Positions 26,001 to 39,700 of a stretch of 64,000 nucleotides of DNA are shown here, piece after piece. The stretch comes from an uncultured Clostridium sp. (GTDB lineage Bacteria; Bacillota; Clostridia; TANB77; CAG-508). Position numbers and translations under genes: made by a program. Positions within the stretch are counted from its first letter, which is position 1, and each line of letters starts with the position of its first letter. Where the stretch lies: NCBI GenBank assembly GCA_902492105.1, contig CABUKD010000002.1:9155-73154 (forward strand). The letters run 5' to 3'. Below the pieces are notes generated by a model that had not been told where the DNA came from, did not search any database, and worked only from the letters and a program-made list of their open reading frames with translations.

Positions 26001-28206
26001 TATATCTTTGGATTTTTTTACTAATTTCGCCTTCTTGAATTTTGTCTGTTTCTACAATGTTGCCTTTTCTGTCGATTTTGTAAAATCCATCTATTAGTTG
26101 TACATCAGTCTGTTCATATTCTCCATCTTCGTTTAGGGTAAATCCCATTAAATCATTAATAGAAAATGTTTCATTATAGTAGTTTCTACCATCTTTTAAT
26201 AACTCTCCGCTTCTTAAAGAATTGCTAGAAATATAGTTTTTTGGTGCTGAACCAATTTCTTCAAATTGTTCATTATATTCTTCCCTTGTCATTTCTAGTT
26301 TTGTATCATTTTCCCCACCATCTTGTAATTCAGTTACTTTAGAGGTAGCTTCCCAAATTTCGGTATTATATAGTTTGGCATTATATACCATGTCTGTTAC
26401 AGAATCTTGGTGTACTAGGTTTCCATTCTTTTTTTGGTCAGTTACTAAATATTCTGTTGGTAAATAAATTTGGCCATTATATTCAAATGTGACATAATAT
26501 TTGCTTTCAGAATTTAATCCATCAAATTCATAATATCCATTTTCGTCTGTTAAGGTTGGGTTCATTCTATAAGCAATTTCTCTATCTGTTAAACTTTCTT
26601 TATCTGCTTCAGATAATAGGTCTGCTACATAACTTACTAATTTGCCATTTCTATATTGTAAATTTCCATTTTCATCTAATGGACATTCATATAAAGTAAC
26701 TTTTACATTTGGAAGTACTCTATCATTTGCCTCTCCATTATATAAATCAGAGTGAATACCATCTGCTATATTTTGTTTGGTATCTTTTACATCTTCCCAT
26801 ACATAACCACCTAAATTCATGGTGATATCTAATTTTTGGTCTCCTCCACCAGTTAAATTAATAGTTAGTTTGTATAGGTTTCTTTCTCCCCAAGCATCCA
26901 TCATAAATTGTTGTGGTACAGGATATTCTGTTACTTTCCAACGATAGTTTACGCTACAAGAAGTTAAATCTCCGTCTTTGTTATAACTATCGTGGTGTCC
27001 TGTTTCAATTGGTGTTGCTACTAATTGGTGTCCTTCTAATTCACAAGCAATAGCATAAGTAGTCATATAGGAATACTCTACACTAATGTCTATATATCTT
27101 ACTGCATCATTGCTGTCTAATACTCCTTGGTTTGGATTTTCTATTTTTAAGTAAAATTCTTGTCCACTTACTGGGTAAGATTGCTCTGTTCTATCTACAT
27201 ATCCTTCTTCTTCTAATGGTGTAAAAAAGTCTAATTTCTTTTCTTCTCCATTTTGGATATAGCTTATAATGTTAGCATCTTTAATATATTGCGTTTTATC
27301 TTTATCATTGTAACCTTTTACTGTCATGTTAGAAATTCCTGCAAATTTAGCAGTAGCAGAATTTCCTTCTACATAATCCATTTTATATGGTCCAATAATT
27401 AAGTATTGTTCTTCTTGATTTACATTGATTTGTACCTTTTCTGTTGTGGTTTCTTTAATTGGATTATCTACATTATTTTTTAGTTCTTCTTCATAATCTC
27501 TATAATCCATAGATTCTTCTTTTAATTGTTCTGCCATATCTAGATAAGTAAATTTTGCTCCACTTGCTTCAAAAGATTCTCCTCTATTTACTTCCATATT
27601 AAGCCAAATAGCTACTTGTTTTACTTCTTGGCTAATGTTTTCTCCCTTTTTAAAATAAGTAGTAGATTTTCCATATACATAGCTTCCATCTGTTGGTGCA
27701 ATAAAGTTATTTGGTGCAGTTACTGTATAAGCACCTGATGGTACTAGTTCTGTGTGATTATTGACACAAATATAATAGGTATTGGAATAACGTTTTGCAG
27801 GTAAGGAAGCTTTGTGAGAACCTGAACTTACACTACCTGTTGTTCCATCTAGTGCTTTAATAGTAGCTACTAGATTTTCGTTCATTTCTACTGATACTCC
27901 TTTTTGGATACAGTAAAGCTGAATATCTCCAATGGAAGGACAAAATACTTTATTTACTTGGCTTGGTAATGCTTCATAATAGAAACTTCCATTTTGATAA
28001 AAAGCTGGGCTATCGTGAGCACCTTGTGTAACTAGAGTTCCATCTGCTACAGAGCCATTTACTGCTAAAGCTTCTTTAGTAAGTTTTGCAACTTGTTGTA
28101 TTGGGCTTTCTTCATATTTTATCAAAGAAGAAATAGTAACAACTAATGCGACAAATAAAAGTATAAGACCCAATACGAAAAGTGTAATTTTTCTTTTACC
28201 TTTCAT
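23017..28206 (-). CDS. Giant surface adhesin, module 1 gene B: N-terminal anchor/signal, thioester-domain signature, SdrD-B/Cna-B-like and isopeptide-type domains, C-terminal sorting-like signal
   Basis: LYCIQKG (Cys99, nt 27910-27912) and VKQVAIW (Gln197, nt 27616-27618) match the YCxE/TQxA(I/V)W thioester pattern. GGYVWEDVKD...TDENGYYEFDGL and GTAWEDERT...NEKGYYEFSDFIPGNYVVRF are SdrD-B-like. The C-terminus is VVILPPFG, then a hydrophobic helix, then KKKVMKKK. Confidence 0.85.
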   Translation of the reverse strand: MKGKRKITLFVLGLILLFVALVVTISSLIKYEESPIQQVAKLTKEALAVNGSVADGTLVTQGAHDSPAFYQNGSFYYEALPSQVNKVFCPSIGDIQLYCIQKGVSVEMNENLVATIKALDGTTGSVSSGSHKASLPAKRYSNTYYICVNNHTELVPSGAYTVTAPNNFIAPTDGSYVYGKSTTYFKKGENISQEVKQVAIWLNMEVNRGESFEASGAKFTYLDMAEQLKEESMDYRDYEEELKNNVDNPIKETTTEKVQINVNQEEQYLIIGPYKMDYVEGNSATAKFAGISNMTVKGYNDKDKTQYIKDANIISYIQNGEEKKLDFFTPLEEEGYVDRTEQSYPVSGQEFYLKIENPNQGVLDSNDAVRYIDISVEYSYMTTYAIACELEGHQLVATPIETGHHDSYNKDGDLTSCSVNYRWKVTEYPVPQQFMMDAWGERNLYKLTINLTGGGDQKLDITMNLGGYVWEDVKDTKQNIADGIHSDLYNGEANDRVLPNVKVTLYECPLDENGNLQYRNGKLVSYVADLLSEADKESLTDREIAYRMNPTLTDENGYYEFDGLNSESKYYVTFEYNGQIYLPTEYLVTDQKKNGNLVHQDSVTDMVYNAKLYNTEIWEATSKVTELQDGGENDTKLEMTREEYNEQFEEIGSAPKNYISSNSLRSGELLKDGRNYYNETFSINDLMGFTLNEDGEYEQTDVQLIDGFYKIDRKGNIVETDKIQEGEISKKIQRYMDRYLEYPDERAMLDIYEDIVNDFARTAKQKEELWKKLQFIEDCKMQAYTGSPFEDGEIDLYPVYDDFVIGNKKMVIPGVGTKPPIYDGQYYVNAGLWRRQENNLSLRKDIYRAATKINGKTEVYEYDKRSEDDKYWEIQIRMQDYYNYYGTNYNRELYPADYEYRAEDTNLYGSNLELYVTYKITIRNSSQNILNEITEVVDYYDKDYTYMPDLSWVMYKDSNRDGNEKVAITDEAYYNMIHNLDLSQIAYARNINSSYGISEDRNGNYCGDSIYGEDSKQDIEEELNSVYVRGLDGKKLATGENAYIYLTFKVNSDNQGPVIIDNDQSLKENYAEINGYENYYAEGEKLPNKQTIKNNKTPAGIIDNNSTPGNLSLDDLEGEKYEKNFEDDTDRAKSIKVYLEQSAIRKINGTAWEDERTQSISKSVLGDGIRQKDEIGIAGVTVELVEIMKDGKEYVWQTTTTNEKGYYEFSDFIPGNYVVRFQYGNNQETVLTANNGGKNAVSYNGQDFKSTVYQQDLKNNQSIANYTDEYYNIQKADELSANGKTDLSDAKDLWENQTINTGRTQNSKTNYQNETYQGRTNVNAYSTSNVNNHKAEVLASPYMASIDNSLVQELMQNTHMTAQTAIIVIEGEYNRTNTDGLNSQSNGTDKYLYNNDKNGNYTLNCVDFGLTERPKAQLTLDKKVSNVKITLANGNIAFDASKSVPNLIWVSGKPYDLSSKMDKDQYEAYYEESKEDVNYNRYSYRTEIDKLIASLYQGGQNGLIQPILDVELMHGATIQITYELTVTNAGETDYTGKDFYYKATGASEESKVTTTANLVLDYVANNLQYRETDNEGWKVVNTNDLTNNDNAHINDRLVNNSLTEQIGSYNTILQTEQLSNSLKPGEKVSKQLILTQLITTSDSQDDKTYENIAEIVQTSNTAGRRMAYSVVGNQDPTKTPTEVDSSRAEKVVILPPFGQAYLYYGIGILVGILLVAGIVVIKKKVMKKK

Positions 28207-28242
28207 TTTTAATCATATTCCTTTCTTAAGGTTCAATCTTGA

Positions 28243-28272
28243 TTGAAAAAGAATTTTGTAATTCTTTTTCAA
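28243..28272 (-). promoter_or_regulatory. Intercistronic stem-loop between module 1 genes A and B
   Basis: A 12-bp perfect stem pairs ttgaaaaagaat (28243-28254) with attctttttcaa (28261-28272). No U tract follows on the minus strand. The equivalent junction of module 2 (42194-42215) has no hairpin. Confidence 0.45.
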
Positions 28273-28287
28273 CCTCTCCCTCTCCTT

Positions 28288-31200
28288 TTAATTTTCTCTC
28301 TTTTTACTTAACACATTTCTTTTAATTACTATAATTCCAATTATTAGTAAGAATAAAATTGCTAATGTTAAGCTTACATAAAGTACAATTTTTCCTGTTA
28401 CTACGGATAATACAATATCTGCTGTTGACATATCATCTTCATTTTGTGCGCTATTTGCTTCTTGAGAGTCAATATCTGTTAACCCTTGTTCGTTATAGAT
28501 TTCATAAATTTCTGCATTGTTATTTACTACAGTACCAATATTTTCATCTGTAATGGTAACACTTAAAATTAAGCTTACTTCTTTGCTTTCTCCTGGCTGA
28601 AGTTCTACATTTTCTAGGCTAGTATTATAAACACGGTCATTTTCGTCTGATAAGTACCAATCTTCGTTTAGTTCTGAACTAAATTTAGCACCTTCTGGTA
28701 AGTAATCTACTATTTTCTTTACATAGCCTGGTACTTGTCCTTCATTGGTAACTACCATTTTGTATTCTACTACAATGCTACTTTTACCAATATTTTGAGA
28801 TAGAACTTCTATTTTTTGAAGTTTTTCGTTGTTATAGTTATATACTTTTGTGCCAATGGTTGGAGTAGTTAAAGTAATTTTACTAATATATTTATCTAAT
28901 TTTAAATCAAAGTTTTGAGATTCAATTAGTCCAATGTCAATATCTCTTACATTTCCGTCTGTTACAGAAATAGTATCTGTTACACCTGCATAAGTTTGTT
29001 TTCCATTTAACATAATTTTCATTGCATATACATCTGAGTTATAACTTTGGCTAATACCTTGTTTTTGATATTCTGTTACGGTGTAACTACCTGCATCATA
29101 TAGGAAAATAACTAAATATTCATCTGGTTGTAAGCCCGTAAATTCATAACTTCCATTATCTGCTGTTGTTACTATTTTTTGACTGCCATTTTCATCTATT
29201 ACAATTTCATTATTGGATTTTTTAAGTAACATAACTTGAATACCAGATAATACTTGTTCGGTTTCCTCTCTTTGTCCATTTTTGTTACTGTCTAGCCATG
29301 CAGTACCTGTAATTTTATAAGTTCCTGATGGGGTATTTGTATTATCTCCATCATTTCCAGATTCTCCTTCATATAGTTTAGGATTGTATTCAATAATAGT
29401 ATTAATTGCGTTAGATTCTTGTTTTTGAGTTCCTTGTGCTTCTATGCTTCCTACATTAGTTACTGTTTTGTCTTGTTTATCTTCTGGTAAAAGATCTGCT
29501 TTTGCTATTACTTTTACAGTAGCTTCTGCCCCTTTTTCAAAATTAGTCCATCTTACTTTTGCAGTATTATTAAGGGTAGAGGTAACTACTTCTGTTTGTC
29601 CTTGATAGGTATATTCTAATTTTTGGAAGGTAAGTCCTTCTGGTAATACATCTTCAAAAACAACATCATTTGCGTCTGCATCCCCTGTATTTTTAATGGT
29701 AAATTCATAAGTGATTTGTTCTGCTTCTTTGATATATCTTTCAGAAGTAGTAGTTTGTGTAATTTCAAAACTTGGATTTCCTACATGATAAATTAGTTGA
29801 TTAGAATAATGTGTTTCCATTCCACTTGCTTCTGCTTTTGCTTGATATTGGAAATCTCCTTTAAAGTCTTGTATTTGAAGCTGTAGACTAATACTTTCTA
29901 AGTAACCTGCTTGTAATTGTGGGATTGTTACAATTACTTGGTTATTTTGTATTTGTATATAGTTTTGTTCTTGTCCATTACTATCTTTGTAAGTAGTGCC
30001 ATTAATTTGAATCCCTGCTGGTATGTCGATGGTTACTTTAACATTATTTAGAGTTTCTTTGCTTTCTAATAAAATAGTACTATATAGAATATCTCCTTTG
30101 TGAAGAGATGTTTCTAAATCTCTTGGAACTAATAATGTTAAATTCATTTTTGCTGCTACTTTGTTTAAAACATATTCATTAGAAGCTACACCTGTGGTAA
30201 AATCTTCTGCTGCTACTCTTACTTGATGTTTTATTTCTCCTAATGTGCCTTGATTCATTTTTAGTTCATAAGTAGCATTTGCAGTTTCTCCTACTGCTAA
30301 ATTTCCTAAAGCAATTAGTGGTTTTTCTTCGTTACTATCTACATAAGCTTGATTTGCAGAATCATATTGTGTATAAATAGTTCCTTCTGGCACAGGAACA
30401 TTAATTGTTACACTTTTTGCTTCTTCATTTCCTACATTTTTTACTTGTACAAAAAATCTAACAATTTGTCCTTCTGTTACATTACTGTTTTGTTCCATAT
30501 TGGAACTTAAGGTCACTTCTAATTCTGATCCTTGTCCTGTGGTTAAACCTAATATTGCTGATGTTTTAGTTTCTCCAATAGTTGCTGTTTGTGTTTTATT
30601 ATCATAAGATACTTGGTACATTTGGTAACAGCTGTTGTTATGTGCTAAGTTTCCTGGTAATTCTACTTTATAGCTAAACTGTAATTTTGCACCAGAGTTT
30701 ACTTCTCCAGTTACTACAATTAAATAGCTTTTCATACTAGTAAGATCTTGAGGATTTTCTTGCCATCCATTTGCTGTATTCATTAAGTCTTTATTTGCTT
30801 TTGCATTACTGCTATAATAAATCTTTATTTTGCTAGCATCTATACCAGAAGTAGTTATTTTTTCTTTTAAAAGCATAGCAAAGTTACTTCCTAGGCTTTC
30901 TTCTGTTTCAATATTGGTATTATCGGCAAATGGTAATCTTCCTAAAATCATAACATTTTCAATTGGATTACTATAATTATTTGTGATAATTCCTGTTATT
31001 GTTACTTCTTGTTTACTGCTATGAGTTGGAATGATTGCTTCTTGTTTTTGGTTGCTTATGCTAGTTAATTCAGAAGGTGTTCCGTTGTATCCTGTCATGC
31101 TGTTAGAAGCAATTACCCCTGTTGGTGCTACTAAATTAAGTTCTGTAGTAGCTACTCCTTTTTCTGCTTTAGCTTGTACTGCTCTTGCTTTACTTTGTCC

Positions 31201-33288
31201 TCCGGTATATGGGTTTTCGTAAAGATTGGTATTTTCGTTAGTGTAATACATAATAAGTTGCTCTGTTGCGGTTGTTGCAAGGTCATTTAGAGTAATATCT
31301 GTATTTAAAATAATATTAGCACCTTTTGTAATAACATTTTTTTGGGTTGTTTTTCTTATTTGTTCATCTAAGTATTTGGTTTGTGTCCCTTCTAATGTAA
31401 TTTGAATGACTTTTTTACCATTTTTTGTTACTACTTTTGCTTCTTTTAATGTTAGCTCTTTTTCTAAGAAAAGATTAACATCTTTAATTTCAATATTTTC
31501 TACTTGTTCTGGTAATTCAATTTCAAAAGTAGGATTTTTGTACAAAGCATTTTCTGTACTAGAAGTATCTAGTACAATTCTAATTTGTACATCTTTATTT
31601 TCTACTACTGTGGATAAATTTTCTTTGCCTTCTATAATAGCAATTTCTGCTTTACTAACAGGTTCTGTTAAAGAAATGCTAGTTTTTTCTGTAATTTCGG
31701 CATTTCCTGTACTTTGCATATTCTGTGCAGCTTGTGTAATCTTGTTTTGATTAGTTACTCCTAGCGTTATTTTTGAGAAAGATTCTAATTGTTCTTTTTC
31801 ATAATTTTGTATTGTTAATACCTTTTCCATGGTAATTGGTAAAATACCTTCTGTAATAGGTTTTGTAGTTGTTAGCATAACTGTATTTACTTCTGAATTT
31901 GAAAGATCTAGTGTATAGTTTTCATTTTCCTTACTAGATTCTTTATTGATGGTTCCAAGTGTAGTACCATCTTCTGAAGCAATTTGAATACTTCCGTCTT
32001 GTCCTAATAATTTTTCAAAAGCTAAAACAGGTATGGTTATATTTTTTATTTTTTCTTGGTTTCCAATTGTATATTCTTTATTATTTTCATCTACAAAAAC
32101 AGATGGCATCGTTTGCAATTGGATTTTTTCTGTTAAAGAACTATCATTTACTTGTGCATAATAGGTAGTAGTATAAGGTGTTTCTTGTTTTGTATAAAGA
32201 GTTCCTTTGCTTAAAGTTGCATTACTATTTAGGTCTATTTGTGTTAGAGTATCTTGCTTGGTTGCATTTTCTTCTATATTACTATTGGCTTCTAAAACAG
32301 TAGCATTGGTATCTGGAAGGATTGCTTTTCCATTTATGTTCATACTAACTGGAACACTATTTTCTAATGCCCATTGATAACTTTCTTCTCCTACATAAAA
32401 TAGGTTAATTACATATTGGTCTTGTCCATTTTCATTCCATGCTATCATATCATTTTCTAAATTTTGAGTACGAATGGTTAGGCTTCCACTTTCTTGGTTA
32501 TATTCATAATTTGCACTAGTAAAAGAAACACCAGTGTTATTGTTTCCAGTAGCTGTTATTTGCTTTGCAACAACAGTTACTCTTTGTGGTGCTTGTCCAT
32601 TTACTTGTGGTACTTGCATGGTAAGTTCTGTTTCAGAAATAGGCATAAGTGCTTTTGCTAGTTTACTAGTAAGGGTAGTTTGCACCATAACGCCATATTC
32701 TCCGTTTTGTATATATGGTACATAAGTTACCCCTTGTTTTGACAAAACAAGTTCATCTTCTACTTGCCAAATTACTTGATTATTCATAGTTTTACTAATT
32801 TCTTTTTCGTTTCCGTTTCCATCCACATAAGTTGCCTCAAATTCTACAGTAGATGTTTTAGAAAAATAATCAGTAGAAATAGTTTCTTGTTTTTTTATTT
32901 GAATTGGAACTTCTAATACCACTTCTTCATTTTGTTTAATTTGTTTTAAGGAAATGCTATTTTCCGTAGCACTTTGTACCTTTTCTGATTCTAATTTTTC
33001 TGTAGCAATTTCATAATTTGCATCAGAAATACGGACTATTCCCTCTTTTAAATAGCCTGCATTTTTTATTTTTAAATTGATATATAAAGTTGCTCCTTGT
33101 TCTATATTAAAATTTTTGGTATAGGTATTTCCTTCGAAATAACTATCAAATTCTACATTTTGATTGTTCGTCTTACTGTTTTGGCTTGTTAAATTTGCCG
33201 CAATTACTTGGTTCCCTAAGGTGATAAGGTTCATCCCTATGAGCATAATTATCATTAGTACAGCTAAGATTTTCTCTTTTATTTTCAT
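28288..33288 (-). CDS. Giant surface protein, module 1 gene A: signal peptide, many DUF11-like repeats, SdrD-B-like domain, isopeptide-type C-terminal domain, sorting-like signal
   Basis: The signal peptide is MKIKEKILAVLMIIMLIGMNLITLGNQVIAA. DUF11-like segments include ITYEFTIKNTGDADANDVVFEDVLPEGLTF. TGTAWLDSNKNGQRE...ADNGSYEFTGLQPDEYLV is SdrD-B-like. The C-terminus is ADIVLSVVTGK, then a TM helix, then KRNVLSKKREN. Confidence 0.85.
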   Translation of the reverse strand: MKIKEKILAVLMIIMLIGMNLITLGNQVIAANLTSQNSKTNNQNVEFDSYFEGNTYTKNFNIEQGATLYINLKIKNAGYLKEGIVRISDANYEIATEKLESEKVQSATENSISLKQIKQNEEVVLEVPIQIKKQETISTDYFSKTSTVEFEATYVDGNGNEKEISKTMNNQVIWQVEDELVLSKQGVTYVPYIQNGEYGVMVQTTLTSKLAKALMPISETELTMQVPQVNGQAPQRVTVVAKQITATGNNNTGVSFTSANYEYNQESGSLTIRTQNLENDMIAWNENGQDQYVINLFYVGEESYQWALENSVPVSMNINGKAILPDTNATVLEANSNIEENATKQDTLTQIDLNSNATLSKGTLYTKQETPYTTTYYAQVNDSSLTEKIQLQTMPSVFVDENNKEYTIGNQEKIKNITIPVLAFEKLLGQDGSIQIASEDGTTLGTINKESSKENENYTLDLSNSEVNTVMLTTTKPITEGILPITMEKVLTIQNYEKEQLESFSKITLGVTNQNKITQAAQNMQSTGNAEITEKTSISLTEPVSKAEIAIIEGKENLSTVVENKDVQIRIVLDTSSTENALYKNPTFEIELPEQVENIEIKDVNLFLEKELTLKEAKVVTKNGKKVIQITLEGTQTKYLDEQIRKTTQKNVITKGANIILNTDITLNDLATTATEQLIMYYTNENTNLYENPYTGGQSKARAVQAKAEKGVATTELNLVAPTGVIASNSMTGYNGTPSELTSISNQKQEAIIPTHSSKQEVTITGIITNNYSNPIENVMILGRLPFADNTNIETEESLGSNFAMLLKEKITTSGIDASKIKIYYSSNAKANKDLMNTANGWQENPQDLTSMKSYLIVVTGEVNSGAKLQFSYKVELPGNLAHNNSCYQMYQVSYDNKTQTATIGETKTSAILGLTTGQGSELEVTLSSNMEQNSNVTEGQIVRFFVQVKNVGNEEAKSVTINVPVPEGTIYTQYDSANQAYVDSNEEKPLIALGNLAVGETANATYELKMNQGTLGEIKHQVRVAAEDFTTGVASNEYVLNKVAAKMNLTLLVPRDLETSLHKGDILYSTILLESKETLNNVKVTIDIPAGIQINGTTYKDSNGQEQNYIQIQNNQVIVTIPQLQAGYLESISLQLQIQDFKGDFQYQAKAEASGMETHYSNQLIYHVGNPSFEITQTTTSERYIKEAEQITYEFTIKNTGDADANDVVFEDVLPEGLTFQKLEYTYQGQTEVVTSTLNNTAKVRWTNFEKGAEATVKVIAKADLLPEDKQDKTVTNVGSIEAQGTQKQESNAINTIIEYNPKLYEGESGNDGDNTNTPSGTYKITGTAWLDSNKNGQREETEQVLSGIQVMLLKKSNNEIVIDENGSQKIVTTADNGSYEFTGLQPDEYLVIFLYDAGSYTVTEYQKQGISQSYNSDVYAMKIMLNGKQTYAGVTDTISVTDGNVRDIDIGLIESQNFDLKLDKYISKITLTTPTIGTKVYNYNNEKLQKIEVLSQNIGKSSIVVEYKMVVTNEGQVPGYVKKIVDYLPEGAKFSSELNEDWYLSDENDRVYNTSLENVELQPGESKEVSLILSVTITDENIGTVVNNNAEIYEIYNEQGLTDIDSQEANSAQNEDDMSTADIVLSVVTGKIVLYVSLTLAILFLLIIGIIVIKRNVLSKKREN

Positions 33289-33320
33289 AGAAACCTCCTA
33301 AATTTTATTCCTACATCTCT

Positions 33321-33349
33321 ATTATACGACGTTTTTCCACAATTTTCAA
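33321..33349 (-). promoter_or_regulatory. sigmaA-type promoter of giant module 1
   Basis: On the minus strand it reads TTGAAA (33349-33344), N17, TATAAT (33326-33321), about 35 nt upstream of the AGGAGG RBS and the ATG at 33288. Confidence 0.65.
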
Positions 33350-33643
33350 TGGATTTTGAAAGATTTTTCCATTTTATGTGAATTTTGTAAATTTTAGGTC
33401 TATCTATTATGTGAATTAAAATGAAAAATATAATAATAATTTGGACCTTTTTGTTACATTTATTTTTATGATAAAAGTATTTTAATTGTGAATTATACCA
33501 TTTTACCAAATTTTGTAAATTTTTTAAAATCTATTGATTTGTATTAACTTTTGTGTTAGAATATAATTAATTAAGATAAAATTTAATTTTATTTTAATTA
33601 TTGCATATAATATAAATAATATTAGTAGTCATCTATTAATATA

Positions 33644-33740
33644 GAAAGTTTACCACTGACCGATATGTGGTATATAAATGGTCGGGTTGAAAGTTTTCCG
33701 CTGACCAATATGCGGTATATAAATGGTTGGGTTGAAAGTG
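33644..33740 (+). ncRNA. Type III antitoxin RNA: 2 tandem 45-nt repeats plus a 7-nt partial third (ToxI/CptI-like)
   Basis: Repeat 1 (33644-33688) and repeat 2 (33689-33733) are identical at 40 of 45 positions. The changes at positions 12 and 25 are compensatory (ccAc...gTgg versus ccGc...gCgg). The repeats lie directly upstream of a terminator and a ToxN/AbiQ-like ORF. Confidence 0.8.
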
Positions 33741-33775
33741 GTTCTTCATCAGCATATGATGAAGAACTATCCATT
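33741..33775 (+). terminator. Rho-independent terminator between antitoxin repeats and toxin gene
   Basis: A 10-bp perfect stem pairs gttcttcatc (33741-33750) with gatgaagaac (33758-33767). The loop is 7 nt and is followed by tatccatttta. This is the canonical type III TA layout. Confidence 0.75.
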
Positions 33776-33825
33776 TTATAGCAAAACAATATATAATTAC
33801 TTTTATCATAAAGGAAGTATGTAAG

Positions 33826-34308
33826 TTGATTGAAAGAGGATTTTATATCATAAAAGATAAGTTTTTTCAAGAAATGCAAGATCCATATCTAAAAGGTAAT
33901 AAAGAAGCTAATAGACCACATTATTATTGTTTTAGAGAAGAAAAAACTGGTTTATTTTGGATGATTCCATTAAGTAGTAAAATAGATAAATATAAGAAAA
34001 TAATGAACCAAAAATTAAAAAGTGGAAAATCTTGTGATATTTTACATATTATAAGACTAGATAATGGAAAAGAAAGCGTTTTTTTAATACAGGATATGTT
34101 TCCAATTACTGAAGAATACATAGAAAGAAAATATACAATAGGTCATAATCACTTAATATTAACTAGTGAACATTCTGCAATAGAAATTGAGAAAAAAGCA
34201 AAAAAAGTAATGAATATGTTAAAAAAGGGAATTAAATTTACACCAACACAACCAGATGTCAAAAAAATAATTAGTAAACTAATAAAAAACTCAATTAATC
34301 TATTTTAA
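33826..34308 (+). CDS. Type III toxin-antitoxin system toxin, ToxN/AbiQ/CptN-like endoribonuclease
   Basis: The 160-aa ORF has a TTG start 8 nt after AAGGAAG. The N-terminus GFYIIKDKFFQEMQDPYL...WMIPLSSKIDKYKK resembles ToxN/AbiQ-family toxins. The genomic context (repeats plus terminator) is diagnostic. Confidence 0.75.
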   Translation: MIERGFYIIKDKFFQEMQDPYLKGNKEANRPHYYCFREEKTGLFWMIPLSSKIDKYKKIMNQKLKSGKSCDILHIIRLDNGKESVFLIQDMFPITEEYIERKYTIGHNHLILTSEHSAIEIEKKAKKVMNMLKKGIKFTPTQPDVKKIISKLIKNSINLF

Positions 34309-34374
34309 TCTTTGCAATTAATTTACATTCTAGATTAATTGAGTTTTATAGTTTATTTTTTATTTTAACAGATA

Positions 34375-36186
34375 TTAGCCAACAACTTTCTTAAGTTCTG
34401 TTTGGTCAATATAATTATCTCTTTGTGCTTCTCTTAGCTTTTTCATAAATGGTAAATAGTAAGAATCATCATAGTCTACATAGTCATCTTTGGTAATACC
34501 GTAATGGTTACTAATAATAGAATTTTGGTCTTTAAAGCTTTGGTCTATGGCATTTGCAATTTCTTCATCAAATAAAATAGAAATATAATACATTGCTTTT
34601 GCATGGTCATTTAATTTATCCATAGCACAAGCATAATAGTATACTGCTTTTACCATGATTTTTTCTAGTGGATTGGATAGCATTTGTTCTGTTAAAAAGT
34701 TTAAATTTTCTAATGTTTTAGCGGCTTTGTAATATTCTTTATTTGCAATATAGCAAATAGCTAAGAAATATTTTGCTCCCATTCCCATACTTTCACAAGG
34801 AAGGATAGAAGTATCTTTTAAACTAATAAGAAGAGATAATTTTTCATATCCTACTGTATTTACAATTGTTTCCATCATTTTAGTTACTTGTGCTATATTT
34901 TGTGAATTGATATTTTCTAAATCCATTAATAGTTTTTGCATCGTAATAAAAAGAGAAAAATAAGTTGCATTAGGATCAAAAGTAGCTTCACTCATTCCAG
35001 GTACTGCAATACTGTAAGATGGAAAACCTAATATGGATACATCTCTTACTAGAATATCTTTTCCTTCTTTTAAAATGGTTTGAATAAGCTGTGTTAAAAT
35101 CGTTTTATTATCTTCATTTGATACATCTTTTATTGGAGTAAAGCTATATTGTGGTTTTTCTCCTATTACTTCATAAGGAGCTGCTGATAAATCGGTAAAT
35201 AAAAATTCTACTAGATTTTTATGAGTGTTTTGTTCTTCTCCTGCATAAAAATCAAATAAGCATCTTTGTGCATATTCGTAAATATCTCTTCCCTGGGATG
35301 CTTCTGTAAAACATCTTTCCATAGCAATTCCATAGTCTGGATGTGCTCCTAATTTGAATCCGAACTTTCCTGTATTTTTTTCTATCATATATAATCCTGC
35401 TACTGGATATTTTCCGCCTAAAGAACAATCTACTAGTCTATACCAATAGGTTGGATTTTGTTTTAACATATCTACCATTTTTTGTACTTTTGGAAATTTT
35501 GCTATATATTCTTCTGGTATTTCTGGTAAGGTAATTTTCTTTTTTAAAATTTGAAAACCTACATATCTTTCTAAAATCTCCGATAAGCCTTCTATTAAAG
35601 CTTCTTCTGGGGAGTTTCCTGCACACATTCCATTGGTGTCATAAAGATAACTAAATAGGCGGTCCGGAACATAGGTAATTTGATTGTGTTTTACACTATA
35701 ATAAGGAAGGCATGCAAATTTTTCTTTATCCACTAAAGTGGATTTTTCATTCAAAACTTCTTGAATGTAGGCTAATTGTTCTTCTTTACTACTATTTTGC
35801 TTTCCATTTGCTTCTAAAATATGTTCAAAAAAACTGTTAGGTGTTTTCATCAATTCTTCTGCATTCATATATTTTTCATCTGGAGAGTTGCTAAATGGAA
35901 TTTCTTTGGTTGGTTTTTCCATGCGAAAACGGAACATTCCATTTTGAAATCTTTCAAAAAATTCGGCATAAGCACTTGCCATAGCAAATTCTTTGGTCAT
36001 TCCTTTTCCATTTTGACCAATATCGGTTCCTTTAATACGTAAACGTAAAGAATAGGTGCCTACACTACTTGGTTTTCTCCAATCTTCTTCTACTTGAATG
36101 TCTGCTTTTTTTAATAGTTCTTTTAATTTTTTTACTGTTTCTTCTGGGGTTACTTCTTTATATCTTCTCTCTTGTAATTTACTCAT
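34375..36186 (-). CDS. YcaO-domain protein with C-terminal TPR-like region (orphan)
   Basis: GKGMTKEFAMASAYAEFFERFQN and NGMCAGNSPEEALIEGLSEILERYV are canonical YcaO ATP/Mg-binding motifs. The C-terminal ~170 aa is helical-repeat-like. The likely start is ATG 36186, with GAGGA 8 nt upstream; the track start is a GTG at 36210. Confidence 0.85.
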   Translation of the reverse strand: MSKLQERRYKEVTPEETVKKLKELLKKADIQVEEDWRKPSSVGTYSLRLRIKGTDIGQNGKGMTKEFAMASAYAEFFERFQNGMFRFRMEKPTKEIPFSNSPDEKYMNAEELMKTPNSFFEHILEANGKQNSSKEEQLAYIQEVLNEKSTLVDKEKFACLPYYSVKHNQITYVPDRLFSYLYDTNGMCAGNSPEEALIEGLSEILERYVGFQILKKKITLPEIPEEYIAKFPKVQKMVDMLKQNPTYWYRLVDCSLGGKYPVAGLYMIEKNTGKFGFKLGAHPDYGIAMERCFTEASQGRDIYEYAQRCLFDFYAGEEQNTHKNLVEFLFTDLSAAPYEVIGEKPQYSFTPIKDVSNEDNKTILTQLIQTILKEGKDILVRDVSILGFPSYSIAVPGMSEATFDPNATYFSLFITMQKLLMDLENINSQNIAQVTKMMETIVNTVGYEKLSLLISLKDTSILPCESMGMGAKYFLAICYIANKEYYKAAKTLENLNFLTEQMLSNPLEKIMVKAVYYYACAMDKLNDHAKAMYYISILFDEEIANAIDQSFKDQNSIISNHYGITKDDYVDYDDSYYLPFMKKLREAQRDNYIDQTELKKVVG

Positions 36187-36381
36187 TTGCTTATTCCTCA
36201 CTTTCTCCACTTTTATTACAAATTTATTAAATAGACAAAAATTTTCTATCTAATATAAAATATCATTTTTCGACAAAATTCACTAGAGTATTTTACAAAA
36301 AATGCTTTTTTTATTATAAACTATTTTTGTTAAATTTTTATATCGTTTTTTTATAGTTTTCTAAATTTAAATTTTTATTTT

Positions 36382-36540
36382 ATAGCTTTCCAGTATATAT
36401 TTTCTTTTTTTCATTGGTTCGTCCCATAGGCTTGTGAATTACAGCACACTTTCTCTTGTATAAATTTCAATGTTCTGACTATGTACTAAACAAATGGTCC
36501 TCAACAACTCAAAATGCGAAAATATATACCGGAAAGCTAT
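36382..36540 (+). repeat. Family-1 hairpin-bounded element, copy A
   Basis: The terminal stem pairs atagctttccagtatatattttc (36382-36404) with gaaaatatataccggaaagctat (36518-36540) with 1 mismatch. The interior has TCGTCCCATAGGCTTGTGAAT, CACACTTTCT and ACAAATGGTCCTCAA. The inner helix P2 is disrupted in this copy. Confidence 0.7.
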
Positions 36541-36597
36541 TGTATCAATAAAAATGATAAATGAATAATAGAAATAAAAATAATAAAAAAATTCAAG

Positions 36598-36641
36598 AAA
36601 AAAACAGCTCTTTAAGTTTTTTTCTTAAAAAGCTGTTTTTA
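36598..36641 (-). terminator. Bidirectional Rho-independent terminator after the 1824-aa gene
   Basis: A 17-bp stem (aaaaacagctctttaag / cttaaaaagctgttttt, 1 mismatch) has a T7 loop and flanking A and T runs. Confidence 0.75.
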
Positions 36642-36718
36642 TTTTTCATTTCTTATCTTTTATATTTTATCTTTTGTTTTTTATCTCTTATGCTTTATCC
36701 TTTGTTACTTTAGTATTT

Positions 36719-39700
36719 TTAGAATCTTCCCTTATTGAGTACCGTTTTCTTAATAACTACAATACTAATTCCTAACATTGCTGCGATTAACACTGCTAAA
36801 CCAATATATAGGTAAGTTGCACCAAATGGTGGTAAAATTACTACTCTTTCTGCCATACTACTGTCTGGTTCTGTTGGTGCATCTTTAGGGTTTTGGTTAC
36901 CTTGTACAGAGTATGCCATTCTTCTACCTACATCATTTGAAATTTTTACAATTTCTCCAATGTTATCATAGGTTAAATCGTCATCCTCATTTTGAGAAGT
37001 AATTAATTGTGTTAAAATTAATTGAACCTCATCTTGTGTTTCTGCACTATCTTTTGTACTTTCTGTTAATGGGATTAATTTTTCATTTAATGCTTCGGTA
37101 GTAATAATTGTGTTATAATCTTTTAATACTCCTTGTACTTCTGTATTTACATAGTTATTATTTTGAATTTCTTGTTCTGTAATAGTACTCCAATCCCATG
37201 CGTCTTGGTTACTTTGTGTTCTAAATTGTAAGTTATTTGCTACATAATCCATTACAACATCTGCTGAAGTTCTTACAATAGTTTCTGGATTATTTACTTT
37301 ACCAATGTAATAGAATTGTGTTTCGTTATAGTCTACTTCACCCATGTTAGTTACTGTTACATCATAAGTAATTTGAATAGTTGCACCATGCATTAATTCT
37401 TGGTCCATTGTAGGTTGAATTAATCCTTTTTCTTTTGTTACCAATGTATGAATTCTATCTAGTACTTTATTTCTAAACTCGTTGTAATCTTGTACTCTGT
37501 TTTCTTGATCCTTATTCGTATCTATGTCTTTATATCCTGCATAATCACTGTAAACATTTTGTCCACCATTGCGGTTTCCTTCTTGTTTATCTATATCAGT
37601 ATTAGTTTTCATTTCATTAATGTTATATGGTGTTTTTGGTTGCCATGTTAAGTTATTTACAGTTTGATTTGCATCAAATAATACAGTTTGGTTAGCTAAA
37701 GTAATTCTTACATTGTGAACTTGTTTATTTAATTCTAATCCTGCTTTTGGTCTTTCTTCTAATCCAAAGTCTACGTCTTGTAAGTAGTAATTTTGGTTGG
37801 TATTATCTTTATAGTCAATAACATTTCTATCACCTTCTGGACGGTAACCATCGTTGTTATAAGTATTATTACCAGTTGCAGCTTGTCTGTTATATTCAAA
37901 TTCCATACGGATGGCACCTGTTTCTGCTACCATTTGGGTACTACTATTTGGTGTAGTATTTTGGTTTAATGTATTTGCTTTATCATAGGTTACACCAGAA
38001 TAATTGTTACTACTGTAATTATTTACATTTTCTCTGTTTTGAGAAATTTGTTCACTACTGTAAATATCTTTTGCATCTGATACATTTATTTTGTTTCCTT
38101 TTTCATCTACAAATTCATCTGATTTAAAGATATTATATCCAAAGGTTGCTGTATCATTTTGTTTTTCATAATCTGTATAGCCGTTGTATCCAAAGTGATC
38201 TTTTCCGCTGACATCTGTTCTACCATTTTGGTCAATTGCTGTATTATTTATATGGTTGTATTGATAACTGGTTGATTTATAGTCTTGTCCATTATAGTAA
38301 GCATTACAGTCATAGGTTTGTCCATTATAGGTGTAGCTTTCGTCTCCACCATAGATAAATCTTACTACATAATCTCCTGGAATATATCCTTCAAAGTAAT
38401 AATATCCTTTTTCGTCTGTTACTGTTGCTGCATCTATCCAAGTATTAGTGTCTTTATTCCATACTTTTGCAATATTTTCTTGTGTTACACCATCTATTAC
38501 TTCATGTAATTCTACTCGAACACCGGAGATGGTTACTTCATTATCTTCTCTTACACCGTTGCCCACTAAGGCATCTGTAGTACTATTTCCGTTCATGGTA
38601 GGCGCTTGATAGTTTCTCTTATCTTCCCATACAGTACCATCTAGTTGTCTTACTAAAGAAGCATCTACATATACATTAATTCCTCTTGCTCTATCTGCAT
38701 CATCTTCGAAGTTTTGCTCGTAACGTGTAGTTCCTGCTGTATTATTTAAAGCATCTCTATCAAAGTTACCTGGGTTAGAGTCTTGGTCAATTAATCCTGC
38801 TACATCATTAGAATTTTTTCTAATGCCGTTTGGTAATTCAGTGCCATCTGCATAGTATGTCATATAACCATTAATTTCTGCTATGTTTTGTTTTCCTGGT
38901 CCGGTATTATCGTTTTCTATTACTAAATTTGAACCAACACCATTAATTTTGAAAGTTAAGTATAAGTATGCTGTTTCTCCAGTTTCTAGTTTATGGTCAC
39001 TTAAACCATTTACATATAAAGTTTTATACTCACTGCCTAAACTAAATTGTGTATTTTCTGCATACATACCTGTTGTAGTATTATATCGATTACCAAGTGT
39101 TACATCTCTATACTTTTCTTGTCCTGTTGTATCTTTGCTACCTTCATGCATAATATCGTAATATTCTTGATCTGTTACTTGTACATCTCTATTACTTACA
39201 TGATCTCCTCTGTACATTGCCCAAGATAAGTTTGGTTCAAAGGTGTAATCTGAGTCATAGTAATCTACTACTTCCTGAATTTGAGCTAAAATACTTTGAG
39301 ATTGGTTTCTAATGGTAATTTTATAGGTTATATAAGCTTCTAATTGGTTTGTTCCTGTATAATTTCTTTCTGATGGATAAATTTCTCTTGAATAGGTTTC
39401 TCCATAATAGCTTGCATAGTTTGGTCCTATAATTCTTGCTTGAATATCCCAGAATTTGTTTTCTAATTCTAATTGATAATTCAAGTATTCTACACTATCT
39501 CTACCATATTCTTTTTCTAGTCTTTTTAATTCTGCTCTTTCTTCATCTGTAATAATTTCTCTTTCGTTATATTCATAAATTTCGGTTTTGCCATTGATTT
39601 TTAAGGTTGCTTTAAATACATCTTTCTTTAGAGATACATCATATTCTTGTCTTCTCCATAGCCCTTGATTAATCATTAATTGTCCAGCATAAACATTTTT

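What the first reader, a model, noticed from the sequence alone, without database searches (positions are those of the whole stretch)
33601..34308. Type III toxin-antitoxin locus with a 2 x 45-nt RNA repeat (cptIN-like architecture), hidden under a spurious antisense ORF
- Two 45-nt tandem repeats (33644-33733, identical at 40 of 45 positions) are followed by a 10-bp terminator hairpin and a 160-aa ToxN/AbiQ-like ORF. This is the defining layout of type III TA and abortive-infection systems.
- The pair of differences at repeat positions 12 and 25 is compensatory (CCAC/GTGG versus CCGC/GCGG), which supports a folded antitoxin RNA.
- As I recall the literature, a 45-nt period with about 2 repeats matches the CptIN family from gut Firmicutes rather than 36-nt ToxI. 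I could not verify this.
- The ORF-track entry 33622..33879 (minus) is an artefact of translating the repeats.
- The locus sits between the two giant adhesin modules, next to the orphan YcaO.
Basis: partly seen in the sequence, partly recalled or inferred. Interest (0 to 1): 0.6.

Follow-up and report, generated by a model that had tools for sequence, protein, structure and literature searches.

The report
CptIN RNA-antitoxin toxin cassette

Summary
The observation and the interpretation both hold. Window 33644-33739 carries 2.1 tandem copies of a 45-nt unit. A terminator hairpin and a 160-aa ORF (33826-34308, +) follow.

- **Toxin.** The ORF matches the crystallised CptN toxin of Eubacterium rectale (PDB 4RMO_A, E 2.8e-70). 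It also matches NCBIfam NF047359 "CptIN family toxin" at 178 bits against a cut-off of 90.
- **Antitoxin RNA.** Repeat 1 (33646-33690) is identical at 45 of 45 bases to the crystallised CptI RNA. Repeat 2 differs at five positions. Four of these are two compensatory base-pair swaps, one in each stem of the known pseudoknot.
- **Other parts.** All three GA|AAG processing sites are present, as are a conserved promoter and both terminators.
- **Active site.** Er Ser51, Ser52, Ser85 and Tyr104 are conserved. Er Arg53 is Lys and Er Asp81 is Asn here, and both variants recur in relatives.
- **Genomic setting.** The cassette (about 0.95 kb, 33420-34374) replaces 136 bp in a same-genus genome. No close homologue turned up in 24 congeners.
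- **Antisense ORF.** It is spurious.

It is a new member of a known kind, of low interest. One side observation may be worth a look. The two repeats form a position-specific pair of isoforms, kept in 63 of 68 species.

The parts
33420..34374 (.). Cassette-bearing stretch that is absent from a same-genus genome. That genome (G001) has an unrelated 136-bp spacer here.
   Evidence: blastn of window 27000-38500 against G001:C107. The adhesin side aligns up to window 33419 and the YcaO side from 34375, at about 88% identity. In G001 the two are 136 bp apart, against 955 bp here.
33534..33562 (+). Predicted promoter P1: -35 TTGATT (33534-33539), 17-nt spacer, extended -10 TGtTAGAAT (33554-33562).
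   Evidence: Consensus scan. The site is conserved in the nearest relatives. It is homologous to the TATTGACTT..TGCTAGAAT promoter that directly precedes the repeats in most family loci. No transcript data were available.
33563..33645 (+). 83-nt AT-rich leader with two predicted hairpins (33568-33600 and 33619-33642). It ends in the first AGA|AAG processing site. About 70 nt of it is missing from the main family.
   Evidence: Alignment with L001-L010, the upstream listing and the fold. A perfect TATAAT at 33606-33611 could be an alternative -10.
33646..33690 (+). CptI antitoxin unit 1 (A-type), in the register of the processed RNA.
   Evidence: 45 of 45 identical to the crystallised CptI_Er repeat.
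33691..33735 (+). CptI antitoxin unit 2 (B-type). Differences from unit 1: A7U, A10G with U23C, and G17A with C38U.
   Evidence: Both double changes keep a Watson-Crick pair in stems S1 and S2.
33736..33738 (+). AAG start of a third unit. It supplies the 3' context of the last processing site (the '0.1' of 2.1 copies).
   Evidence: Rao 2015 needed 5'-GA and 3'-AAG around a repeat for processing. GA|AAG occurs at 33644-48, 33689-93 and 33734-38.
33738..33780 (+). Intrinsic terminator/attenuator between antitoxin and toxin: a 14-pair stem with a perfect 11-bp core, then CCAUUUUAUA.
   Evidence: It is conserved in relatives.
33811..33817 (+). Ribosome-binding site AAGGAAG, 8 nt before the TTG start.
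   Evidence: Sequence. The same AAGGAAGT motif occurs in relatives.
33826..34308 (+). cptN, a 160-aa endoribonuclease toxin with a TTG start.
   Evidence: 4RMO_A at E 2.8e-70, aligned from residue 1. NCBIfam NF047359 at 178 bits. Key residues are conserved.
34283..34366 (+). AT-rich hairpin (arms 34283-34302 and 34331-34350) followed by a T-run. It is the likely cptN terminator and faces the convergent YcaO gene.
   Evidence: Inverted repeat I2: 20 nt, 95% complementary.
33622..33879 (-). [quoted passage not shown]
   Evidence: It has no Pfam family. Two of the three antisense frames of the 45-nt unit are stop-free by sequence. The frame is neither open nor started in relatives L001-L008.

Best explanation
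The locus is a functional type III toxin-antitoxin cassette of the CptIN family, E. rectale subfamily.

**How it most likely works**
1. A sigma-70-type promoter near 33534-33562 drives a transcript through an 83-nt leader and two 45-nt CptI units.
2. Most transcripts stop at the hairpin terminator (33738-33780). A minority read through into cptN. The RNA antitoxin is therefore made in excess.
3. CptN is a ToxN/Kid-fold endoribonuclease. It cuts its own precursor after the A of each GA|AAG junction (after 33645, 33690 and 33735) and releases two 45-nt H-type pseudoknots.
4. Each pseudoknot keeps its 2',3'-cyclic-phosphate end in the active site of one CptN and binds a second CptN with its 5' tail. 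This closes an inactive 2 protein : 2 RNA ring.
5. When transcription stops or the labile RNA is lost, through phage attack or loss of the DNA, free CptN cleaves cellular RNA and arrests growth.

**What is shown and what is inferred**
- Shown here: the identity of the parts, identity of unit 1 to the crystallised RNA, two compensatory pairs, conserved RNA-contact and catalytic residues, and presence as an indel cassette.
- Inferred from the E. rectale work: processing, complex formation and toxicity.
- Open: the biological role. I put it roughly evenly between selfish stabilisation of the locus and phage defence.
For: **Toxin**
- 4RMO_A 'CptN Toxin' at E 2.8e-70, aligned 1-152.
- NCBIfam NF047359 CptIN equivalog at 178.4 bits against a cut-off of 90.
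- Er S51/S52/S85/Y104/R30/R102 correspond to window S50/S51/S84/Y103/R30/R101, invariant or almost so across 82 family members.
- The RNA-pocket residues named by Rao 2015 (I60, I73, L88, V129, M132, F139, I106) are identical in the alignment. I74 is Leu here.

**RNA**
- Unit 1 is 45 of 45 identical to CptI_Er.
- On 43 distinct units from 70 loci, the pseudoknot stems S1 (7-11 with 22-26) and S2 (15-19 with 36-40) are 99.1% paired. Slid controls give 20-45%. Pairs 10-23 and 17-38 change on both sides.

**Architecture**
- TRF gives 45 nt x 2.1 copies, within the cptIN ranges of 40-48 nt and 1.9-3.4 copies.
- The locus has a terminator, a conserved promoter and three GA|AAG sites.

**Integrity and mobility**
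- The genome holds one cptN and exactly two CptI units.
- The cassette is absent from the syntenic site of a same-genus genome. No close homologue turned up in 24 congeners.
- Family loci sit in unrelated contexts, some beside a Mob_Pre relaxase.

**Experimental precedent for the subfamily**
- Toxicity, rescue by a single repeat, a cyclic phosphate on A45 and plasmid stabilisation have all been shown.
Against: - No expression or processing data could be obtained.
- The catalytic triad Arg (Er R53) is Lys here, and the adenine-specifying Asp81 is Asn. Lys occurs in 7 of 82 family members and Asn in 19 of 82, and ToxN uses Lys in its triad. Activity of these variants has not been tested.
- The U-tract of the internal terminator is weak (CCAUUUUAUA).
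- The promoter is only a consensus match.
- Phage defence has never been shown for CptIN: more than 200 coliphages gave no effect.
Confidence: 0.9

Rival explanations
1. The cassette is a decaying or attenuated CptIN. The toxin is catalytically weakened (Arg53 to Lys, Asp81 to Asn), and the RNA persists only as a relic.
For: Two substitutions fall at named active-site positions. Short, probably dead CptN fragments are common in the family (Blower 2012) and in relatives, where some frames carry stops.
Against: - The ORF is full length and has an RBS.
- Asn at Er-81 is shared by all ten nearest relatives. Lys at Er-53 recurs in six other loci, including more distant relatives, so both look like tolerated variants.
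- ToxN's own triad uses Lys.
- Both repeats, all three processing sites, the promoter and the terminators are intact. That is not expected if the toxin no longer needed neutralising.
Confidence: 0.07
2. The repeats are a cis-regulatory leader (attenuator or riboswitch-like) of the downstream gene, or the real gene is the 85-aa antisense ORF. On either reading the locus is not a toxin-antitoxin pair.
For: A leader followed by a terminator resembles an attenuator. Gene callers can emit the antisense ORF. Rfam has no family for the RNA.
Against: - The RNA is identical to one crystallised in complex with the homologous protein.
- The antisense frame is not conserved and lacks a start codon in relatives. 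It has no Pfam family.
Confidence: 0.02

Closest known systems
CptIN of Eubacterium rectale (PDB 4RMO; Rao et al. 2015, PMC4627078; family defined by Blower et al. 2012, PMC3401426)
   Same: - The gene order is the same: promoter, 2 x 45-nt repeats, terminator, toxin.
- Repeat 1 is identical base for base.
- The toxin aligns end to end (E 2.8e-70).
- Ser-Ser, Ser85, Tyr104 and the named RNA-pocket residues are conserved.
- Both loci are chromosomal in a gut Clostridia bacterium.
   Different: - The toxin is only about 66% identical.
- Er Arg53 is Lys and Er Asp81 is Asn here.
- The start codon is TTG.
- An extra leader of about 70 nt, conserved and AT-rich, lies between promoter and repeats. 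It is shared only with a low-GC subgroup (L001-L010).
- The spacer between terminator and RBS is about 28 nt longer.
- Because unit 1 is identical, cross-neutralisation with CptI_Er is predicted. The 35-44%-identical systems tested by Rao showed none.
ToxIN (Pectobacterium atrosepticum, Bacillus thuringiensis) and AbiQ/antiQ (Lactococcus)
   Same: - All share the type III logic: a repeat RNA is processed by its own toxin into pseudoknots that inhibit it.
- A terminator sets the RNA:toxin ratio.
- The toxin has the ToxN/Kid fold.
   Different: - There is no Pfam ToxN-family hit and only a weak PADLOC AbiQ match (2e-5).
- Those systems use 34-36-nt repeats and heterohexamers.
- Abortive infection is proven for ToxIN and AbiQ but not for CptIN.
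TenpIN with two non-identical repeats (PMC13682666, 2026)
   Same: - Both have two repeats that differ in sequence yet can both form H-type pseudoknots.
- Both form a heterotetrameric 2:2 complex like CptIN.
   Different: - It is a different toxin family: NCBIfam TenpIN scores 19.8 bits against a cut-off of 90.
- TenpI repeats are so diverged that TRF misses them. Here the copies differ at five positions.

Membership tests
CptIN type III toxin-antitoxin family | The toxin is homologous to CptN (the family is defined by toxin sequence). | tested here: met
   NCBIfam NF047359.1 equivalog at 178.4 bits against a cut-off of 90. PDB 4RMO_A at E 2.8e-70 over residues 1-152.
CptIN type III toxin-antitoxin family | [quoted passage not shown] | tested here: met
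   45 nt x 2.1 copies at 33644-33739. The family ranges come from Blower 2012, Table 2.
CptIN type III toxin-antitoxin family | A short palindromic terminator lies between the repeats and the toxin gene. | tested here: met
   Stem at 33738-33770 plus a T-rich tail. It is the only such site in the region, against 0.1 expected. It is conserved in relatives. Its function is predicted, not measured.
CptIN type III toxin-antitoxin family | A promoter lies upstream of the repeats. | tested here: inconclusive
   A consensus match lies at 33534-33562. It is conserved in nine relatives and homologous to the main-family promoter.
CptIN type III toxin-antitoxin family | The repeat RNA folds as an H-type pseudoknot with an A-rich L2 (A-minor twist). 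| tested here: met
   Unit 1 is identical to the crystallised RNA. L2 (A27-G35, including A29 and U30) is unchanged in both units. Stems are 99.1% paired, with two covarying pairs.
CptIN type III toxin-antitoxin family | Active site: the Ser51-Ser52-Arg53 triad plus Asp81, Ser85 and Tyr104 (E. rectale numbering). | tested here: inconclusive
   Ser, Ser, Ser85 and Tyr104 are conserved. Arg53 is Lys and Asp81 is Asn, and both variants recur in relatives.
CptIN type III toxin-antitoxin family | The toxin arrests growth and the cognate repeats neutralise it. The precursor is cut after A45. | not testable with these tools
   This needs kill/rescue assays and RNA-end mapping. The GA|AAG sites are present three times.
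ToxIN / AbiQ family | ToxN-type toxin sequence (Pfam ToxN_toxin) with 34-36-nt repeats. | tested here: not met
   There is no Pfam ToxN hit. PADLOC AbiQ reaches only 22.9 bits, E 2e-5. The repeat period is 45 nt.
TenpIN family | TenpN-type toxin sequence. | tested here: not met
   NCBIfam NF047358 scores 19.8 bits against a cut-off of 90.
Abortive-infection (phage defence) systems | The system lowers phage plating efficiency through death of the infected cell. | not testable with these tools
   The literature is negative for CptIN_Er and CptIN_Rt in E. coli. Neighbours are surface-protein and YcaO genes, not a defence island.

The most novel reading that the evidence does not exclude
The two CptI repeats may not be redundant copies. 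They may be two position-specific isoforms whose stems are kept mutually 'orthogonal' by selection.

**Evidence**
- In 63 of 68 species carrying this subfamily (toxins 65-83% identical), the 5' unit has A10-U23 and the 3' unit G10-C23. In 62 of these the 5' unit also has G17-C38. The 3' unit has G10-C23 in all 68, with A-U or G-U at 17-38 in 65.
- Five loci carry G10-C23 in both units, and none carries the 5'-unit state (A10-U23) in both.
- Unrelated 48-nt CptI arrays in the same genus or order also differ between their two copies by compensatory S2 swaps.
- In silico, heterotypic dimers have a nested inter-repeat misfold that is 1-4 kcal/mol weaker than in homotypic dimers.

**Possible readings**
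- Heterotypy could prevent inter-repeat misfolding of the precursor.
- It could suppress slippage or recombination that would collapse the array.
- It could give an asymmetric N2-I(A)-I(B) complex.

**The neutral alternative**
An old divergence may simply be frozen by strong purifying selection. The longest identical run between the two types is only 14 nt, which may be too short for recombination to homogenise the copies. Unit 2 is also the less constrained copy.
Probability: 0.3. Interest if true: 0.5.

Novelty: new member of a known kind. Interest (0 to 1): 0.22.

Why it matters
- **Annotation.** Protein-only pipelines name the toxin at best. They miss the RNA antitoxin, because Rfam has no CptI family, and they may emit a false antisense gene.
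- **Acquisition.** The locus shows a minimal cassette of about 0.8-0.95 kb gained at a site that is empty in a same-genus genome.
- **Cross-talk.** An RNA antitoxin stays base-for-base identical while its toxin diverges to about 66% identity. This predicts cross-neutralisation between species, which matters for how these modules compete or coexist in gut communities.
- **Novelty.** None of this changes what is known about type III systems.

Tried and rejected
- **Rfam** (evalue mode, 33300-34400): only chance hits with E of 0.9 or more, and no CptI family.
- **Pfam** on the toxin: no real hit. PADLOC gave only a weak AbiQ match.
- **Supplementary table of Blower 2012**, wanted for the second repeat of E. 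rectale: not held. The E. rectale genome itself was not among the 80 loci; the best match to 4RMO was 79%. I therefore could not confirm that the crystallised system has the same B-type second repeat.
- **Phage collection**: no match. **Plasmids**: only 37-44%-identical relatives. No vehicle was identified.
- **Insertion signatures**: I looked for target-site duplications or terminal inverted repeats at the cassette borders. The 28-nt direct repeat D2 (33590-33617 and 34301-34328, 79% identical) lies inside the conserved leader, not at the border. I rejected it as a boundary signal.
- **Inter-repeat folding**: my hard-constraint attempt to isolate inter-repeat pairing in ViennaRNA returned empty structures and was discarded. 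Only the unconstrained MFE values were used.
- **Leader hairpin 1** (33568-33600): no convincing covariation among nine relatives on manual reading of alignment A1.
- **Kinship** of the nearest-relative host genomes to this genome: the tool does not report it.
Full report

Yes. Tandem Repeats Finder reports one array at 33644-33739: period 45, 2.1 copies, 90% matches, score 157. The repeat finder gives the two copies at 33644-33688 and 33689-33733, matching at 40 of 45 positions. Directly after the array lies the only terminator-like site in 33250-34450, against 0.1 expected from shuffles. Its stem spans 33738-33770 (14 pairs, with a perfect 11-bp core at 33741-33751 and 33757-33767), followed by CCATTTTATA. 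An ORF of 160 aa (33826..34308, +, TTG start) follows, 8 nt downstream of an AAGGAAG ribosome-binding site.

**2. What is the protein?**

- A search of PDB sequences returns a single hit, 4RMO chain A, 'CptN Toxin'. The E-value is 2.8e-70 and the alignment runs from residue 1 to 152.
- NCBIfam model NF047359.1, 'type III toxin-antitoxin system CptIN family toxin' (an equivalog), scores 178.4 bits against a cut-off of 90. The TenpIN model scores 19.8 bits against 90.
- Pfam has no family for the protein. PADLOC gives only a weak AbiQ match (E 2e-5).
- The protein is therefore a CptN, not a ToxN/AbiQ in the narrow sense.

I aligned 80 homologues from other species together with 4RMO. The residues that Rao 2015 and a 2026 TenpIN paper name for catalysis and adenine recognition are invariant or almost so, and are present in the window:

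| E. rectale residue | Window residue |
|---|---|
| Ser51 | S50 |
| Ser52 | S51 |
| Ser85 | S84 |
| Tyr104 | Y103 |
| Arg30 | R30 |
| Arg102 | R101 |

Two positions differ. The triad Arg53 is Lys here, as in 7 of 82 sequences. Asp81 is Asn, as in 19 of 82 sequences, including all ten nearest relatives. ToxN's own triad uses Lys. I therefore regard both as tolerated variants, but this is untested.

The hydrophobic pocket residues that hold the 5' tail of the RNA are identical in the alignment: I60, I73, L88, V129, M132, F139 and I106 (named). I74 is Leu here.

**3. What is the RNA?**

The reverse primer CptI-WT printed in Rao 2015 gives the E. rectale unit as AAGTTTACCACTGACCGATATGTGGTATATAAATGGTCGGGTTGA. 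This numbering fits the paper: G13 is L1, A27-G35 is L2, U30 is the kink, and A45 is the scissile base.

- **Unit 1.** In that register, window unit 1 (33646-33690) is identical at all 45 positions.
- **Unit 2.** Unit 2 (33691-33735) differs at A7U, A10G, G17A, U23C and C38U. Positions 10/23 pair in stem S1 and 17/38 pair in stem S2.
- **Loop L2.** L2 is shown to be essential by the A29U and deltaU30 mutants. It is unchanged in both units.
- **Processing sites.** Rao needed 5'-GA and 3'-AAG around a unit for processing. GA|AAG occurs three times, at 33644-48, 33689-93 and 33734-38. The '0.1' extra copy is the 3' context of the last cut, and the array yields exactly two full units.

I recovered 147 units (43 distinct) from the window and 70 of the related loci. 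Stems S1 (7-11 with 22-26) and S2 (15-19 with 36-40) are paired in 99.1% of cells. Controls with the partner slid by 1-3 columns give 20-45%. Pairs 10-23 and 17-38 change on both sides, and no shuffle reached the observed covariation score. Rfam has no family for this RNA.

**4. Transcription signals**

- **Main family.** In most family loci a clear promoter, TATTGACTT-N-TGCTAGAAT, ends 13 nt before unit 1.
- **This subgroup.** In the window and its nearest relatives (L001-L010, from genomes of 24-30% GC) the homologous promoter is TTGATT (33534) - 17 nt - TGtTAGAAT (33562). An extra, well-conserved leader of about 70 nt separates it from the repeats. The leader has two predicted hairpins, at 33568-33600 and 33619-33642.
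- **Alternative -10.** A perfect TATAAT at 33606-33611 could be an alternative -10, but it has a poor -35.
- **3' end.** Downstream of cptN, a 20-nt inverted repeat (34283-34302 with 34331-34350) followed by a T-run probably terminates the gene. It faces the convergent YcaO gene.

**5. The antisense ORF**

The ORF 33622..33879 (-) exists mechanically but has no Pfam family. Two of the three antisense frames of the 45-nt unit happen to lack stops, so long antisense frames are expected there. In the closest relatives (L001-L008) the window's frame closes about 52 nt before the toxin start and has no start codon. Lengths and ends vary freely across the family.

**6. Genomic setting**

- **Host genome.** The genome is 1.69 Mb in 67 contigs and 99% complete, with about 30% GC in this stretch of the window. 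It has one cptN and exactly two CptI units.
- **Indel.** In a same-genus genome (G001, about 88% nucleotide identity in the flanks) the adhesin side aligns up to window 33419 and the YcaO side from 34375. An unrelated 136-bp spacer separates them, against 955 bp here.
- **Congeners.** No close homologue turned up in 24 same-genus genomes. Some carry 36-44%-identical CptNs with their own 48-50-nt x 2 arrays.
- **Extent of homology.** Homology to the nearest relatives spans 33517-34300, which is a self-contained cassette of about 0.8 kb. I found no target-site duplication or terminal inverted repeats.
- **Family contexts.** Across the family the flanks are mostly unrelated: 68 of 128 flanks are singletons, and the window's flanks match none. 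One cluster lies beside a Mob_Pre relaxase.
- **Vehicles.** No close relative is on a known phage. Only distant relatives are on plasmids.
- **Neighbours.** They are giant surface proteins with DUF11 and SdrD_B domains and a YcaO gene, not a defence island.

**7. Mechanism and role**

The molecular mechanism is taken from the E. rectale system, which shares an identical RNA unit:
1. The precursor RNA is made in excess, because most transcripts stop at the internal terminator.
2. CptN cuts after A45 of each unit, leaving a cyclic phosphate.
3. Two pseudoknots bridge two toxin monomers in an inactive heterotetramer.
4. Loss of the labile RNA frees the RNase.

The parts are shown here. Processing, assembly and toxicity are inferred.

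The biological role is uncertain. CptIN_Er stabilised a plasmid completely in E. coli, but gave no protection against more than 200 coliphages. CptIN_Rt was also negative against a panel of six coliphages. 'Abortive infection' is therefore a hypothesis for this family, not a property.

Because unit 1 and the RNA-contact residues are the same as in E. rectale, I predict cross-neutralisation between the two systems. The 35-44%-identical CptIN systems that Rao tested did not cross-react.

**8. A side observation**

- **Position-specific isoforms.** Among 68 two-copy loci (one per species, toxins 65-83% identical to the window's), the 5' unit has A10-U23 in 63, with G17-C38 in 62 of these. The 3' unit has G10-C23 in all 68, with A-U (44), G-U (21) or G-C (3) at 17-38. 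Neither pair is ever unpaired. Five loci carry G10-C23 in both units, and four of these also have A17-U38 in both, so are fully B/B. None is A/A.
- **Conservation.** Unit 1 is identical to the crystallised RNA in 44 of 68 species. Unit 2 is more variable: pairwise diversity is 2.02 against 1.38, with hot spots at positions 7, 17, 33 and 43.
- **Other subfamilies.** Distant 48-nt CptI arrays also differ between their two copies by compensatory S2 changes, for example CCUAU/AUAGG against CCUGC/GCAGG.
- **Folding.** Nested-structure folding of two-unit precursors gives a long inter-repeat misfold. It scores -27.9 kcal/mol for A-A, -25.7 for B-B, and -24.0 to -24.8 for the native A-B.
- **Literature.** The papers I read treat cptI repeats as a consensus or as 'near identical, 1-2 nt'. 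Two non-identical functional repeats have been described for TenpIN.
- **Interpretation.** Heterotypy may be selected, against misfolding or array collapse, or for an asymmetric complex. It may equally be an old divergence frozen by purifying selection. I could not decide between these.

**9. Verdict**

The locus is a genuine, apparently intact CptIN type III toxin-antitoxin cassette. It is a new member of a known, structurally characterised family, and NCBI's pipeline would already name the toxin. Interest is low. The only points of modest novelty are the subgroup-specific leader and the conserved two-isoform repeat array.

Noticed in passing
window 33646-33735; loci L001-L080: The two CptI units form a conserved, position-specific pair of isoforms. 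The 5' unit has A10-U23 with G17-C38. The 3' unit has G10-C23 with A/G17-U38. This holds in 63 of 68 species. Unit 1 is base-for-base identical to the crystallised RNA in 44 species, while toxins diverge to 65% identity. Unit 2 evolves faster.
   Followed up: partly
window 33563-33645; L001-L010: A conserved AT-rich leader of about 70 nt, with two predicted hairpins and an internal perfect TATAAT, lies between the promoter and the repeats. It occurs only in the low-GC subgroup of this CptIN subfamily. In the main family the promoter ends 13 nt before unit 1. Its function is unknown.
   Followed up: partly
window 33492-33519 (- strand) and 33381-33395 / 33509-33523: The left end of the inserted stretch carries a strong outward-facing promoter-like site: TTTACA-16-TATAAT with TG, 11 of 12 matches. 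It points at the 1666-aa adhesin gene. It also carries a perfect 15-nt direct repeat (AATTTTGTAAATTTT) of a sequence in the adhesin's native upstream region. The insertion may have duplicated or replaced part of that gene's promoter.
   Followed up: no
L017:32-1138 and the cluster of 34 flanks: In many Lachnospiraceae genomes the same CptIN subfamily lies a few genes from a Mob_Pre relaxase. This suggests carriage on a mobilisable integrated element. The window's copy has no such neighbours.
   Followed up: partly
L082-L090 (same genus or order as the window): Congeners carry other CptIN subfamilies (toxins 36-44% identical) with 48-50-nt x 2 repeat arrays. Several of these toxin frames contain stop codons. 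One nearest-relative host (G048) holds five CptN paralogues.
   Followed up: partly
window 33826-33840: The first codons of cptN (TTG ATT GAA AGA) contain UUGA|AAG, the same sequence as the CptI processing junction. CptN might therefore cut its own mRNA just after the start codon. This was not examined in relatives.
   Followed up: no
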